Source of the DNA: Candidatus Chisholmbacteria bacterium
GTDB taxonomy: Bacteria; Patescibacteriota; Microgenomatia; UBA1400; Chisholmbacteraceae
Direction of reading: 5' to 3'
DNA length: 64,000 nucleotides
Assembly (NCBI GenBank): GCA_963704905.1
Contig: CAVPHZ010000002.1
Location: 292,537 to 356,536 of the forward strand
This document shows, in pieces, positions 1 through 23,153 of this stretch; positions within the stretch are counted from its first letter, which is position 1, and each line of letters starts with the position of its first letter. Made by a program: the position numbers and the translations under genes. The notes under the pieces are model-generated. The model did no database searches and was not told the DNA's origin. It saw only the letters and a list, made by a program, of their open reading frames with translations.

Positions 1-374
1 GTAACAACTCCCAGAAATATTGCCACATCAGCTATATTAAACAACGGCCCCGCACCCATACTCATAAAATCAACAATTCCACCTCGAAATGTTCGGTCAA
101 AGTAATTACTCAATCCACCGCCAAATATCATTCCAATCGATAAGTGAAAATCAGTATTACCTTTTGGTACTAAGGCAATAACGGCCAATATGGAAAGAAG
201 TACAGTTGTCAGTATCCATGCAATTTGAGGACTACTTGAAAGAAAACTGAACGCTACCCCCTGATTGAGAACAACTGGATAGCTCCAACGGATAAAAAGA
301 GTTTTGACAATCTGATCAACAACAATGATCAAAAAGCTAATGATGATAATTTTTCGATTGGAGAAAAGCCTCAC
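1..374 (-). CDS. lspA: lipoprotein signal peptidase II (LspA); its C-terminus runs off the window edge
   Basis: Hand translation of the minus strand from a GTG at 374 gives MRLFSNRKIIIISFLIIVVDQIVKT. That GTG overlaps the upstream stop as GTGA. The reverse complement of 1-59 gives ...PLFNIADVAIFLGVV, matching the LspA FN(L/I)AD catalytic-Asp region. It is absent from the ORF track because it is truncated. Confidence 0.6.
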   Translation of the reverse strand, partial: MRLFSNRKIIIISFLIIVVDQIVKTLFIRWSYPVVLNQGVAFSFLSSSPQIAWILTTVLLSILAVIALVPKGNTDFHLSIGMIFGGGLSNYFDRTFRGGIVDFMSMGAGPLFNIADVAIFLGVV

Positions 375-826
375 ACATTCCTCTTCTTCGCACAGCGCAT
401 GCAAAGCTCAGCCGTTGGATTTATTGCCAATCTATCAGTGTCAATCATTTTCCCACATGACTCACAAAGTCCGTATTTCCCAAACTTCATCTTTGTCAAA
501 GTTTTTCGGATGGTAATCAAACGTCGATCAACTTCCTGTCGGAGAGCTTCAACTCGATCATGACCAGAAATCTCCGCAGCATCGGCATCCGTAGCAGCGT
601 TGTCATTCACACGATCAGTATCAGAGAATGGATCCTCACTATCCAACTTCGTACGGCGCCTCTCAAGTCGTTTTTGCATCGAAACAAGATAATTTTTCAT
701 CGGTTTAAGAATATTTTTTGGTAAAAATGGTACTCGTTTCATAAAATAATATGTTTCAAAGTTAACTAACTTTTCTCTCCTGTTTGTTTTCGAATTCGTC
801 CACCCAATCGTGTAACAAATTGCCAA
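371..826 (-). CDS. DksA/TraR-family C4 zinc-finger protein
   Basis: The C-terminal CESCGKMIDTDRLAINPTAELCMRCA is the classic CxxC-x17-CxxC DksA/TraR finger. Its TGA stop overlaps the lspA start. Confidence 0.7.
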   Translation of the reverse strand: MAICYTIGWTNSKTNRREKLVNFETYYFMKRVPFLPKNILKPMKNYLVSMQKRLERRRTKLDSEDPFSDTDRVNDNAATDADAAEISGHDRVEALRQEVDRRLITIRKTLTKMKFGKYGLCESCGKMIDTDRLAINPTAELCMRCAKKRNV

Positions 827-1625
827 CTCGATTGTCGAATCTCTTGATAATCTTGAGTGACTGATCGTCCACTTCGTAGGTACAGACCAATGATTCCGAT
901 AAATACCATTCCAAATCCATAGTAAACTTCAATTGGGATCGAAAAAAAGTATACAGAAAAGTCAGTAAGCGGATCAACCACAAGGTGCAATGCTCCAGAA
1001 AACGTAAGGTATGAAAATGTTAAAAATCCAGGCTGTGCAGACGCACGCTTGTTCCGATACCATTCAAATGTACGGTACCGCTCCTCCACCCGCCACAGAA
1101 AAATAAAAATCAATAAGTAACCTATTATCCAAATAAACTGGATTGGAAGACGCGGAGCATCATAACCAACAAAAACGAAACCGAGAGACTGAAATTCACG
1201 ACCAACTCCAAATCCCGAAAAAAAGCTCCTATCCAACCCACACTCTGAGCCAATGCAAGACCTGTAACCGAAATATCGGCAATTGCATAATAACTCCACC
1301 GCTTTCTGCGGGAGATAAACCATAGTCCTATCGACCCAAGAAGCAATCCTCCAAATATTGATAATCCCGGAACCCGAAGAACCGATATCCAACGTAGGAA
1401 TGAAAGTTGAAATTGATCAAAATGAAACCCAATATAAGCTAAACGAGCTCCGATAAGCCCAAATAATGCTACGAGTATAAATGTATCAAAAATATCTTCT
1501 TCAGAAAAATGGTTTTCTACTCCCCTTTTCCAAACAACGAAACTTGCCATGACTAGAGCGATAAGTGAAAACACTCCAAAAGTATAGATCGTGACTGGTC
1601 CAAGAGAAATGAGAACTGGATACAT
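766..1625 (-). pseudogene. lgt: prolipoprotein diacylglyceryl transferase (Lgt)-like gene, split by a -1 frameshift at an A7 run and with substituted signature residues
   Basis: The N-terminal half (frame of ORF 1125..1736, from the internal Met MYPVLISLGPVTIYTFGVFSL) matches the Lgt N-terminus. The C-terminal half sits in the frame of ORF 766..1392 (RLPIQFIWIIGYLLIF...PGFLTFSYLTFSGALHLVVDP, compare E. coli RHPSQLYEFLLEG...[21 protein letters not shown]). The two frames join at the A7 tract 1218-1224. One extra A restores a continuous reading ...AQSVGWIGAFFSGFGVGREFQSLGFVF.... Confidence 0.55.
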
Positions 1626-1692
1626 AGTAAAACACCTCTCATTATACCCAAGGTTCGTTGACTTTCTACTACCGCTTCCGTACACTCCAAAT

Positions 1693-2130
1693 ATGCTTGC
1701 ATTAACCCACGCGATTGTTGGGGCAACCATTGCCAAAACCTCGTCTTCACCAACAACGGGCTATCTGCTCGCCTTTCTCTCTCATCCAGTTCTCGATTAT
1801 ATTCCCCACTGGGACATGCGCACACGCCATACGAAGCGTCCGTTAACTCATATCATCTTATTATCTCTTGCCGATGCCGCTGTGGGTTTTACGATTGGCT
1901 TCCTTCTCTTTGGCTCATCAGTTCCATTCGTTCAACTCACCATTACAATGTTCGCTGCACAAGCGATGGATTGGTTCGAAGCGCCATTCACAGTACTAAA
2001 CTGGAAATTCCCACCCTTCTCATGGATCAAGGCTTTTCAGCATAAGGTGCACACGAAAATGGGATTCCCAAATGGACTCTGGACTCAATTTATCCTAGTA
2101 TTCTTTCTACTTTTACTTTCTGCGCAATGA
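1693..2130 (+). CDS. hypothetical polytopic membrane protein with several His residues (possibly a YdjM-like membrane hydrolase)
   Basis: ORF 1591..2130 trimmed to Met35 (ATG at 1693) so that it no longer overlaps lgt. It has hydrophobic segments and an HPVLDYIPHWD motif. I see no confident homology. Confidence 0.35.
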   Translation: MLALTHAIVGATIAKTSSSPTTGYLLAFLSHPVLDYIPHWDMRTRHTKRPLTHIILLSLADAAVGFTIGFLLFGSSVPFVQLTITMFAAQAMDWFEAPFTVLNWKFPPFSWIKAFQHKVHTKMGFPNGLWTQFILVFFLLLLSAQ

Positions 2131-2757: not shown

Positions 2758-2843
2758 GCCGAGGTGGCGGAACTGGCAGACGCGTAGGTCTCAAAAACCT
2801 ATGAGGCTAATACCTCGTGCGGGTTCGACTCCCGCCCTCGGCA
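2758..2843 (+). tRNA. tRNA-Leu (anticodon CAA), class II with a long variable arm; CCA is not encoded
   Basis: Acceptor GCCGAGG pairs with CCTCGGC. U8 is present. The D-arm is GCG/CGC with a GG-containing loop. The anticodon stem is TAGGT/ACCTA with loop CTCAAAA, giving C34-A35-A36. The variable arm is a 17-nt hairpin (GAGG/CCTC). The T-arm is GCGGG-TTCGACT-CCCGC. The discriminator is A2843. Confidence 0.8.
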
Positions 2844-2857
2844 CAATATAAAGTTAA

Positions 2858-18805: not shown

Positions 18806-18819
18806 TGTAACAAATTACA

Positions 18820-19257
18820 ATGTATAATTTCTCTATGAGCTGGCTCGTATATGCACTTCTCTCCGCTGTGTTTGCTGCAATGACCACCATTCTTGCCAAG
18901 ATCGGTGTAAGAGATGTTGATTCAAATCTCGCCACAGCCATAAGAACCACAGTCATCCTCATCTTCACCTGGGGTATCGTCTTTGCTCAAAAAACGACCA
19001 CACAACTGCAAACAATCAATCGTAGTTCAATGCTGTTCTTAGTCCTCTCCGGCTTAGCGACTGGCTTATCTTGGCTGTTCTATTTCCGTGCCCTGCAAGT
19101 CGGCGAGGCAACCAAAGTCGTCCCCATTGATAAGCTGAGCTTGATATTAACCATCATTTTTGCTGCACTATTTCTCAAAGAACGCTTTACACTGTTTACC
19201 GCCATCGGTGCCGTTCTCATGATGGCAGGTGCTATAATGATTTCGCTAACAAAATAA
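18820..19257 (+). CDS. single-EamA-domain small membrane transporter (4-5 TM)
   Basis: Hydrophobic helices. The C-terminal half resembles an EamA repeat. Confidence 0.6.
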   Translation: MYNFSMSWLVYALLSAVFAAMTTILAKIGVRDVDSNLATAIRTTVILIFTWGIVFAQKTTTQLQTINRSSMLFLVLSGLATGLSWLFYFRALQVGEATKVVPIDKLSLILTIIFAALFLKERFTLFTAIGAVLMMAGAIMISLTK

Positions 19258-19274
19258 ATATAAATGGAGGCAGC

Positions 19275-19652
19275 ATGACAGGATATCACGGCCCGATCGA
19301 AGATCTTACACTAGACAATCACAATTTTCGCAAGGTGCTGTTTACCGGTTCGAATTTGCAGTTGGTGCTCATGAGCCTGAAGCCAGGTGAAGATATTGGT
19401 TTTGAAATACACGAAGAACATGATCAGTTTTTCCGCTTCGAAGGAGGCATTGGTGAAGTCATTATCGATGATAACCACTATGTGGTCAAAGACGGAGATG
19501 CGGTAGTTGTACCGGCTGGTTCCCGTCACAACGTCTCCAACACCTCAAAGACGGATTCACTCAGGCTCTATACTATCTACGCTCCTCCCGAGCATCCTGA
19601 CGGCACTGTTCACTCCACAAAAGAGGAAGCTGAGCAATCTCACCACAGCTAA
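19275..19652 (+). CDS. cupin-domain protein
   Basis: The cupin beta-barrel motifs G(x)5HxH-like (EIHEEHDQFF) and VVVPAGSRHNV are present. Confidence 0.65.
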   Translation: MTGYHGPIEDLTLDNHNFRKVLFTGSNLQLVLMSLKPGEDIGFEIHEEHDQFFRFEGGIGEVIIDDNHYVVKDGDAVVVPAGSRHNVSNTSKTDSLRLYTIYAPPEHPDGTVHSTKEEAEQSHHS

Positions 19653-22730: not shown

Positions 22731-23153
22731 TCAGTTGACAATAATCGTGCCAGATTGACTTGAATTCTTATGATTATGAAAACCCCACCTGCCAGCCGTA
22801 TTAAATGTGAACGTGTATGTTGAACCTTTGCCCACCGCTTGGAGTTGATCAAATCCTGGCAGCAGCTGATGAGAAGGGTGCTCATCAGAGGCAACCCACA
22901 TTGGCTCATCGCTCTCATTTCGAAAGGTCACCGCCTCACCTGTTTTAATGGTAACTGAATTGGGTGAGAATCCATCCGAGGTATAACCAACTACCGCAGT
23001 TTCATTCATCACCGCTCGGCTACTTGGAGAGGTTTCTTGACTCGATTCGTCGCTAGATACTGGCTGATTTGTCTGAACTGTGGGTTTTTTCACACACCCT
23101 GATACCGCTAATCCAAAAACAAAGACAATGAAAATCCATTTAATATTTGACAT
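22731..23153 (-). CDS. putative lipoprotein (lipobox VSGC), possibly cupredoxin-like
   Basis: MSNIKWIFIVFVFGLAVSGC is a signal peptide plus lipobox Cys. The remainder is small and beta-rich. Confidence 0.5.
   Translation of the reverse strand: MSNIKWIFIVFVFGLAVSGCVKKPTVQTNQPVSSDESSQETSPSSRAVMNETAVVGYTSDGFSPNSVTIKTGEAVTFRNESDEPMWVASDEHPSHQLLPGFDQLQAVGKGSTYTFTFNTAGRWGFHNHKNSSQSGTIIVN

What the first reader, a model, noticed from the sequence alone, without database searches (positions are those of the whole stretch)
766..1736. Lgt homologue is frameshifted at an A7 tract and has lost its signature catalytic residues, while lspA next door looks intact
The two halves of an Lgt-like protein lie in different frames joined at AAAAAAA (1218-1224), so one extra A restores the reading frame. 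Independently, the residues corresponding to E. coli His103, Arg143 and Asn146 are Phe, Trp and Ala: SIFGG versus SFHGG, and GWIGAFF versus GRWGNFF.

Three explanations fit:
- an assembly homopolymer error on top of a very divergent Lgt;
- a decaying lipoprotein pathway;
- a slippage-regulated gene.

lspA retains FNIAD, and a lipobox lipoprotein candidate exists at 22731-23153, which makes complete loss surprising.
Basis: seen in the sequence. Interest (0 to 1): 0.5.

Follow-up and report, generated by a model that had tools for sequence, protein, structure and literature searches.

The report
One-base break in divergent Lgt gene
A membrane-enzyme gene of an uncultured "candidate phyla" bacterium is split by one missing base in a run of T's (a sequencing slip or a very fresh mutation), while its missing catalytic residues are normal for its whole bacterial lineage and not a sign of decay here.

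Summary
An Lgt-family gene on the minus strand (ATG 1625, stop 766) changes frame at T7 (A7 on +, 1218-1224). Adding one T gives a 286-aa protein whose junction, GAFFSGFGVGRE, matches intact orthologues. The model folds confidently and matches only E. coli Lgt (5AZB).

The break looks trivial.
- The downstream half keeps 26 of 26 columns that are invariant among orthologues.
- No other gene in the 64 kb is frameshifted.
- About 20 other A7/T7/T8 runs inside genes are in frame.
- 42 of 43 orthologous loci are unbroken; the one broken locus has an unrelated 8-nt deletion.
- No frameshift stimulator was found.

It is therefore either a homopolymer undercall or a very young T8-to-T7 mutation. Reads are needed to tell which.

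The "lost" residues (Y26, H103, R143, N146, E151, R239, E243) are absent from the whole clade. This is a Microgenomates (CPR) Lgt subfamily with a 12-residue YRTFEWYR insertion. It sits upstream of lspA in 29 of 42 loci. That argues against local decay.

Whether the subfamily still lipidates proteins, and whether it is the only Lgt in these genomes, could not be tested. The frameshift is of low interest. The subfamily is of moderate interest.

The parts
766..1625 (-). Reconstructed Lgt-family gene (286 codons if one T is added at the tract). It is the orthologue of intact 282-305-aa genes of Microgenomates/CPR.
   Evidence: AF2 model pLDDT 92.9. The only significant PDB match is 5AZB, E 3e-11, TM 0.67.
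1125..1625 (-). Upstream reading frame as it stands: 136 Lgt residues (TM1-TM4), then 30 out-of-frame residues and a stop. This equals the public 166-aa ORF P0014.
   Evidence: Pfam LGT 80.2 bits over profile positions 1-132.
1218..1224 (-). T7 run (A7 on +) where the frame changes. An intact gene needs GCT TTT TTT TCG (T8), encoding A-F-F-S.
   Evidence: Orthologues L046 and L047 read GCG TTT TTT TCx in frame. There is a single gap in the window in the DNA alignment.
766..1217 (-). Downstream part in the -1 frame (150 codons plus stop). It covers the short head, TM5-TM7, the clade-specific insert RVEERYRTFEWYR, and the C-terminal RSGR motif with a basic helix.
   Evidence: 163 bits to the family HMM. 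26/26 orthologue-invariant columns are kept. Secondary structure.
1641..1668 (-). Best promoter-like site of the region (TAGAAA, 16 nt, TATAAT), 16 nt upstream of ATG 1625.
   Evidence: 10 of 12 matches. The total number of sites in the region is at chance level, so this is a consensus match only.
371..751 (-). DksA/TraR-type C4 zinc-finger gene (126 aa) between the Lgt-like gene and lspA. A gene of the same family sits in the same position in Chisholmbacteria.
   Evidence: Pfam PF01258, 44.5 bits. Synteny.
1..374 (-). lspA (signal peptidase II). The first 124 codons are present and the gene is cut by the window edge. Both catalytic-Asp motifs are present (NYFDR, FNIAD).
   Evidence: (PF01252, 70.1 bits).
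1693..2130 (+). Divergently oriented 145-aa membrane ORF of unknown function. It is a conserved neighbour and is not known to be part of the pathway.
   Evidence: No Pfam hit. 55% identity to the ORF in the same position in L002.
22731..23153 (-). The only credible lipobox ORF in the window (MSNIKWIFIVFVFGLAVSGC...), a cupredoxin-like protein.
   Evidence: PF13473 is precomputed for P0210. Two of its three homologues lack the Cys.

Best explanation
This is one gene, not two. It is this organism's copy of an Lgt-family seven-helix membrane protein that is conserved in Microgenomates (CPR/Patescibacteria), usually just upstream of lspA.

The deposited sequence has T7 where an intact gene needs T8 (GCT TTT TTT TCG, coding A-F-F-S). 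Translation as written therefore stops after 166 residues. The missing base is either a homopolymer undercall in the assembly or a very recent, possibly polymorphic, replication-slippage deletion. It is not a conserved recoding signal and not the visible end of long decay.

The absence of the canonical Lgt residues is an old, clade-wide property that arose within a fast-evolving CPR Lgt lineage.

Inferred, not shown: the family still acts with LspA in lipoprotein maturation, and it binds its lipid donor differently from E. coli Lgt.
For: Shown:
- A +1 T repair gives GAFFSGFGVGRE, the same length and residues as the intact orthologues P0001-P0013. The DNA alignment puts one gap at the run. Orthologues L046 and L047 have an in-frame T7 at the same codons, so the run is a by-product of coding A-F-F-S.
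- There is no decay downstream. 26/26 orthologue-invariant columns are kept. The C-half to N-half identity ratio is 0.94, against 0.89 among intact pairs. The C-half scores 163 bits to the family HMM. From base composition, an open 150-codon frame by chance has a probability of about 1e-4 (my estimate).
- The repaired protein folds as one domain (pLDDT 92.9, pTM 0.86) and matches only 5AZB.
- Sequence quality is otherwise good. No other broken gene was found among about 75. About 20 other A7/T7/T8 runs inside genes are in frame.
- Synteny is conserved: dnaB, efp, an unknown ORF, the lgt-like gene, a dksA-like gene and lspA appear in the same order in Chisholmbacteria. lspA lies downstream on the same strand in 29 of 42 unique loci.
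- The residue losses are clade-wide. Intact orthologues also fail the TIGR00544 cutoff (55-68 bits against 118.9), while a canonical control passes at 169.
- Relatives in the same profile family still keep R143 and/or R239. These include insert-bearing members (P0073 has both; P0100 and P0113 have R143). This points to vertical descent with secondary loss.
Against: - There are no reads and no close relative (the best is 55% identity). An error cannot be separated from a real T7 allele.
- The rest of the window shows no homopolymer errors. That lowers the prior for an assembly artefact somewhat.
- The functional inference is weak. Five of the six residues reported as essential in E. coli (PMC13251419) are replaced.
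- Only about 3 credible lipobox ORFs were found among 512 ORFs sampled. The window's one lipobox is not conserved in two of its three homologues.
- I could not check whether a canonical lgt exists elsewhere in these genomes.
Confidence: 0.75

Rival explanations
1. This is a true pseudogene within a decaying lipoprotein pathway. T7 is the fixed state, the protein is lost, and lspA and the lipobox proteins will follow.
For: - The frame is broken in the only available sequence.
- The family already lacks the canonical catalytic residues.
- Lipobox ORFs are rare, about 3 in 512.
- In Collierbacteria-type loci the neighbouring LspA has lost its first catalytic Asp. Erosion of the pathway therefore does occur somewhere in this radiation.
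Against: - There is a single lesion only. 26/26 invariant columns are kept downstream and no stop occurs in 150 codons.
- lspA in the window keeps both Asp motifs.
- Orthologues are intact in 42 of 43 unique loci.
- If the mutation is real it must be very young, which is not the same as a decaying pathway.
Confidence: 0.15
2. The full-length protein is produced, or regulated, by slippage. This could be -1 ribosomal frameshifting on U_UUU_UUU, insertion of an extra U by RNA polymerase, or phase variation of the tract length.
For: - The heptamer is in the correct X_XXY_YYZ phase. A -1 slip gives exactly the conserved A-F-F-S-G sequence.
- Any real T7 allele would probably leak a small amount of full-length product by these routes. 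This rests on general knowledge of slippery U and A runs, not on a test made here.
Against: - No orthologue needs a shift at this site.
- The downstream hairpin is weak and starts directly after the run (-10.6 kcal/mol, z = -1.7, with 11 of 200 shuffles folding as well).
- The only Shine-Dalgarno-like GGAG abuts the run instead of lying 10-14 nt upstream, and it encodes conserved Gly-Ala.
- The next zero-frame codon, CGG, is not rare (184 of 927 Arg codons). Five other T7 or A7 heptamers in the same phase lie in ordinary genes.
- Seven bases is shorter than the runs of 9 or more typical of known transcriptional-slippage genes (my knowledge).
Confidence: 0.07
3. At the family level, the subfamily is no longer a prolipoprotein diacylglyceryl transferase. 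It would be a pseudoenzyme or scaffold, or it would have another lipid-related activity, and a canonical Lgt elsewhere in the genome would do the lipidation.
For: - Y26, H103, R143, N146 and R239 are all replaced and only G154 is kept. These are essential in E. coli (PMC13251419).
- The new conserved motifs, the YRTFEWYR insert and RSGR, lie in loops predicted to be cytoplasmic by analogy with E. coli Lgt topology (plus inference). They therefore cannot replace the periplasmic-side active site.
- Non-functional or weak second Lgt copies are known, for example M. smegmatis MSMEG_5408 (cited in PMC12462473 and PMC13251419).
Against: - No second lgt was found in the 64-kb window or within 4 kb of the gene in 43 loci.
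- Operon-like linkage to lspA holds in 29 of 42 loci.
- The family grades into members that keep R143 and R239. That pattern fits an orthologue, not an extra paralogue.
- R73, G99, D129, G154, P197 and Q199 are retained.
Confidence: 0.35

Closest known systems
E. coli Lgt (phosphatidylglycerol:prolipoprotein diacylglyceryl transferase, PDB 5AZB/5AZC, PF01790)
   Same: - Same Pfam family, matched over the whole profile.
- Same seven-helix fold, with 5AZB as the only significant PDB match.
- R73, G99, D129, G154, P197 and Q199 are retained.
- It is linked to the next enzyme of the pathway, LspA.
   Different: - Y26F, H103F, R143W, N146A and E151F, with no R239, E243 or R246.
- The head domain is much shorter.
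- A 12-residue insert follows TM5, and there is a long basic C-terminal helix.
- It scores far below the TIGR00544 equivalog cutoff.
[quoted passage not shown] 2026, PMC13251419)
   Same: These are PF01790 proteins that depart strongly from the Lgt motif and lack both arginines. The authors suggest a different acyl substrate or a different mechanism.
   Different: - The taxa differ. CPR is not mentioned in that paper.
- I could not compare sequences, so it is unknown whether the two groups are related.
- The CPR clade has its own YRTFEWYR insert and is linked to lspA.
M. smegmatis MSMEG_5408, a second Lgt homologue with altered essential residues
   Same: It is an Lgt homologue with substitutions at essential positions (Y26H, N146C) and presumed low activity (PMC13251419, PMC12462473).
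   Different: That protein is an extra copy beside a functional Lgt, and it keeps the arginines. Here many more residues are replaced and no canonical copy was seen nearby.
Programmed -1 frameshift sites (dnaX, IS3 orfAB)
   Same: There is a slippery heptamer in the right phase, and the -1 frame carries the conserved continuation.
   Different: There is no conservation of the shift, no significant stimulatory structure, and no Shine-Dalgarno-like element at the right distance.

Membership tests
Lgt (PF01790 / TIGR00544, EC 2.5.1.145) | Pfam PF01790 match above the gathering score, over the whole domain | tested here: met
   87.9 bits against 24.9, profile positions 1-238 of 240, for the repaired protein
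Lgt (PF01790 / TIGR00544, EC 2.5.1.145) | Score above the NCBIfam/TIGRFAM equivalog cutoff | tested here: not met
   TIGR00544 gives 42 bits against 118.9. Intact orthologues score 55-68. The canonical control P0037 scores 169.
Lgt (PF01790 / TIGR00544, EC 2.5.1.145) | Seven-transmembrane Lgt fold | tested here: met
   AF2 pLDDT 92.9, pTM 0.86. Foldseek match to 5AZB: E 3e-11, probability 1.00, TM 0.67.
Lgt (PF01790 / TIGR00544, EC 2.5.1.145) | Essential residues Y26, H103, R143, N146, G154 and R239 (PMC13251419) | tested here: not met
   Only G154 is kept. The others are F, F, W and A, with no Arg at R239. The R239 column depends on the alignment, but no Arg is conserved in TM6 in the clade.
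Lgt (PF01790 / TIGR00544, EC 2.5.1.145) | Signature motif G142-R-x-G-N-F-x-N-G-E | tested here: not met
   The window has G-W-I-G-A-F-F-S-G-F. The clade consensus is GWLGAFFSG.
Lgt (PF01790 / TIGR00544, EC 2.5.1.145) | Uninterrupted reading frame | tested here: not met
   One base is missing at 1218-1224.
Lgt (PF01790 / TIGR00544, EC 2.5.1.145) | Transfers diacylglycerol from phosphatidylglycerol to the lipobox Cys | not testable with these tools
   This needs biochemistry or genetics.
Programmed -1 ribosomal frameshift site | Slippery heptamer X_XXY_YYZ in the zero frame | tested here: met
   GC-U UUU UUU-CGG. A -1 slip reads UCG next.
Programmed -1 ribosomal frameshift site | Stimulatory downstream structure 5-9 nt after the heptamer, and/or a Shine-Dalgarno-like element 10-14 nt upstream | tested here: not met
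   The hairpin starts at +0, at -10.6 kcal/mol and z = -1.67. GGAG abuts the run.
Programmed -1 ribosomal frameshift site | The shift requirement is conserved in orthologues | tested here: not met
   42 of 43 unique loci have a single open frame. The one exception is an unrelated 8-nt deletion on a 1.2-kb contig.
Transcriptional-slippage or phase-variable homopolymer locus | A long run (typically 9 or more A/T) or tract-length variation among reads or strains | tested here: inconclusive
   The run is 7 nt. 36 runs of exactly 7 and 4 longer runs of A or T occur in the window, so the run is not unusual. Read-level variation cannot be examined.

The most novel reading that the evidence does not exclude
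In Microgenomates (CPR bacteria that depend on scavenged lipids), this insert-bearing protein would be the only Lgt homologue, and it would still lipidate lipobox proteins for the LspA encoded next to it. It would do so although five of the six residues essential in E. coli Lgt, including both phosphate-binding arginines, are replaced. That implies a different lipid donor or a different catalytic arrangement. On this reading the T7 allele in this genome would be a leaky or freshly broken copy.
Probability: 0.3. Interest if true: 0.6.

Novelty: new variant of a known kind. Interest (0 to 1): 0.3.

Why it matters
The frameshift itself matters only for annotation. The public record holds a 166-aa fragment (P0014) where a 286-aa gene should be called or flagged.

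The wider point is that Lgt has been described as carrying a signature of invariant essential residues (PMC13251419). Here a sizeable CPR subfamily is conserved and operon-linked to lspA yet lacks nearly all of those residues. About 66 of the 164 family sequences examined carry the insert, and 307 representatives score at E <= 1e-30.

If that subfamily is active, it constrains models of the Lgt mechanism. It also bears on how lipid-scavenging ultrasmall bacteria anchor surface proteins. If it is inactive, it is a conserved pseudoenzyme whose role next to LspA needs explaining.

Tried and rejected
- **Close relatives for the T7/T8 state.** I looked for the same or a closely related organism. 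The metagenome scan with the protein found nothing. The scan with the clade alignment gave only relatives at 49-54% identity. The GTDB species scan did not contain the window's own genome. P0014 is not indexed for contig look-up.
- **Second lgt.** A search for a second, canonical lgt found none in the window or within 4 kb of the gene in the 43 loci. Whole genomes could not be scanned.
- **Other frameshifts as a sign of an error-prone assembly.** The only long same-strand overlap (18811-19649) is two separate genes. Other abutting ORFs are complete, distinct families.
- **Frameshift stimulators.** The downstream folds are not significant. CGG is not a rare codon.
- **Lipobox counting.** There were too few ORFs, and the pattern gives false positives on antisense ORFs and on LspA itself. 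The window's lipobox is not conserved in its few homologues, so this line is uninformative.
- **Literature on Lgt in CPR/Patescibacteria.** Nothing relevant was found.
- **Split-gene idea.** I rejected expression of the C-half from its own start. No orthologue is split, and the only upstream starts in that frame lie in out-of-frame sequence.
Full report
**What is in the sequence**

The feature lies on the minus strand. From ATG 1625 an open frame encodes MYPVLISLGPVTIY... It runs through GGA GCT TTT TTT CGG (T7, which is A7 on the + strand at 1218-1224) and stops at 1125 after 166 codons. The -1 frame continues from the run to a stop at 766.

Inserting one T gives a 286-aa protein. A -1 slip on U_UUU_UUU gives the same product. 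This protein matches Pfam LGT over profile positions 1-238 of 240 at 87.9 bits. The N-half alone scores 80.2 bits, and the C-half alone matches nothing in Pfam. All orthologues begin M-x-P-V-L, and the best promoter-like match (TAGAAA, 16 nt, TATAAT) ends 16 nt before ATG 1625.

**Is it one gene?**

Yes. One of them is from Candidatus Chisholmbacteria. The search also found the exact 166-aa fragment P0014, from a 508,777-bp public contig.

Across the junction the repaired protein reads GWIGAFFSGFGVGRE. The orthologues read GW[LIV]GAFF[SA]G.G.G[RK], with the same spacing. A DNA alignment with four intact orthologues places exactly one gap in the window, at the run.

Two orthologues read GCG TTT TTT TCx, which is an in-frame T7 at the same codons. 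The run is therefore a by-product of coding Ala-Phe-Phe-Ser. With a GCT alanine codon the intact window gene would have T8.

An AlphaFold2 model of the repaired protein is confident as one domain (pLDDT 92.9, pTM 0.86). Its only significant PDB match is E. coli Lgt, 5AZB (E 3e-11, TM 0.67 over 288 columns).

**How old is the break?**

It has left no other trace.
- Among the 13 close orthologues, 26 columns downstream of the junction are invariant, and the window keeps all 26. Upstream it keeps 28 of 29.
- The ratio of C-half to N-half identity is 0.94 for the window, against 0.89 on average among intact orthologue pairs.
- The downstream frame scores 163 bits against the family HMM.
- From the base composition, 150 codons staying open by chance has a probability of roughly 1e-4 (my estimate).

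The shift is therefore an artefact, or extremely recent, or bypassed.

**Is the assembly error-prone?**

It does not appear to be.
- A six-frame map of the 64 kb shows about 75 compact genes and no other pair of abutting half-genes.
- The one long same-strand overlap (18811-19649) is a small transporter followed by a cupin.
- Other abutting ORFs are complete, distinct families: RecR, dCTP deaminase, GuaA, IMPDH and adenosine deaminase.
- About 20 other A7/T7 runs and two T8 runs lie inside genes in frame.

This argues against a generally bad homopolymer consensus. It does not exclude one residual error.

**Is it programmed?**

No support was found.
- The heptamer is in the right phase, but no orthologue needs a shift. 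All 40 GTDB species loci and the other loci have a single open frame. The only exception is a 1.2-kb contig with an unrelated 8-nt deletion.
- The downstream hairpin starts directly after the run and is not significant (z = -1.5 and -1.7).
- The only Shine-Dalgarno-like GGAG abuts the run and encodes conserved Gly-Ala.
- The next zero-frame codon, CGG, is common.
- Five other same-phase T7 or A7 heptamers sit in ordinary genes.

**The 'lost' catalytic residues**

Its numbering reproduces Y26, R73, G99, H103, D129, R143, N146, E151, G154, H196, Y235, R239, E243 and R246.

The window protein has F, R, G, F, D, W, A, F, G and L at the first ten of these positions. It has no Arg or Glu at the last three. 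Legood et al. (mBio 2026, PMC13251419) report Y26, H103, R143, N146, G154 and R239 as absolutely required in E. coli. Five of the six are replaced here.

The same is true of every close orthologue and of the more distant Woesebacteria-type members. Intact orthologues also fail the TIGR00544 equivalog cutoff (55-68 bits against 118.9), while a control with the canonical motif passes at 169. The substitutions are therefore a property of the lineage, not damage in this genome.

**What the lineage is**

The clade shares a 12-residue insertion (R-V-E-E-R-Y-R-T-F-E-W-Y-R) after TM5 and a C-terminal RSGR motif followed by a long basic helix. By analogy with E. coli Lgt topology, both are cytoplasmic. 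That is an inference.

A pattern built from the insertion found 40 species-level genomes. All are CPR or Microgenomates types: Chisholm-, Woese-, Collier- and Pacebacteria, and 'Patescibacteria group'. Several carry implausible record titles.

A profile search of 1.84 billion representatives gave 307 proteins at E <= 1e-30. Of the 164 family sequences I aligned, 66 carry the insert and 66 carry RSGR. R73, G99, D129 and G154 are nearly invariant, while positions 26, 103, 143, 146, 151 and 239 vary freely.

Some members of the same profile family still have GR.G at R143 and R...E in TM6. These include insert-bearing ones: P0073 has both, and P0100 and P0113 have R143. I read this as vertical descent from a canonical Lgt with secondary loss, which is an inference.

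**Context**

The order dnaB, tRNA-Leu, efp, a 145-aa membrane ORF on the opposite strand, the lgt-like gene, a dksA/TraR-like gene and lspA is the same in the window and in Chisholmbacteria.

lspA lies just downstream on the same strand in 29 of 42 unique loci. That count includes four cases where the stop-to-stop ORFs overlap. The window's LspA fragment and most neighbours keep both catalytic Asp motifs. Three Collierbacteria-type loci have lost the first one.

No canonical lgt is present in the window or within 4 kb of the gene in the other loci.

Lipobox ORFs are few. There is one in the window (22731-23153), and two of its three homologues lack the Cys. About three credible ones occur among 512 ORFs in 408 kb of related DNA. 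The sample is small and biased.

**Mechanism, with confidence**

*Shown:*
- One gene is broken by one missing base in a coding T run.
- It has the Lgt fold.
- The canonical residues are lost across the clade.
- It is linked to lspA.

*Inferred:*
- (a) The missing base is an undercall or a fresh slippage deletion. I cannot separate the two, and give them roughly equal weight within a combined 0.75.
- (b) The family is the lineage's Lgt orthologue and still works with LspA using a different donor-binding mode. My probability for this is about 0.3-0.5. The alternative is a pseudoenzyme or a changed function, with or without a canonical Lgt elsewhere.

If T7 is real, some full-length protein would probably still arise by ribosomal or RNA-polymerase slippage on U7. 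That would be leakage, not design.

**Comparison with what is known**

The protein is a PF01790 member by sequence and by fold. It does not meet the residue-level or equivalog definition of Lgt.

[quoted passage not shown] A different substrate or mechanism was suggested for it (PMC13251419). CPR is not mentioned there, and I found no paper on Lgt in CPR.

The M. smegmatis second copy MSMEG_5408 is a milder precedent.

**Verdict**

The frameshift is ordinary and should be settled by looking at the reads. The residue loss is not decay but the hallmark of a CPR-specific Lgt variant that deserves a whole-genome and biochemical check. Overall interest is 0.3.

Noticed in passing
L030 5084-5515, L040 3436-3948, L042 2547-2966: In Collierbacteria-type loci the LspA homologue downstream of the Lgt-like gene reads NIFYR, NVFAR or NLLPR where others have N-x-x-D-R. 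It therefore lacks the first catalytic Asp, but keeps FNLSD. Both enzymes of the pathway may be changing together in that lineage.
   Followed up: partly
L048 516-1212: A 1.2-kb metagenome contig of the Chisholmbacteria species has an independent frameshift a few codons upstream of the window's T run. It is an 8-nt deletion between TTGGG repeats in the GWLG codons. It is probably a low-coverage assembly error.
   Followed up: partly
window 1693-2130 (+): A 145-aa membrane ORF with no Pfam match is oriented divergently from the Lgt-like gene. It is 55% identical to the 144-aa ORF in the same position in Chisholmbacteria and has a conserved HP-x-LD-x-x-PHWD motif.
   Followed up: partly
window 2758-2844 (+): tRNA-Leu(CAA) lies between efp (minus strand) and dnaB (minus strand), on the opposite strand.
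   Followed up: no
loci L006-L044 (record titles): Many GTDB records that carry this CPR-type gene are titled 'uncultured Pseudomonadales', 'Limisphaerales', 'Methylococcaceae' or 'Spirochaetia'. The titles look taxonomically mislabelled.
   Followed up: no
L022 3275-3952 (-): In a Woesebacteria genome a lipobox ORF (…LLMTVSVTTAC…) sits directly upstream of the Lgt-like gene and is oriented divergently from it.
   Followed up: no
window 22731-23153 (-): This cupredoxin-like ORF (PF13473) is the only credible lipobox protein in the window. Its nearest homologues P0211 and P0212 have an uncleaved-looking anchor without Cys, and P0213 has AAAC.
   Followed up: yes
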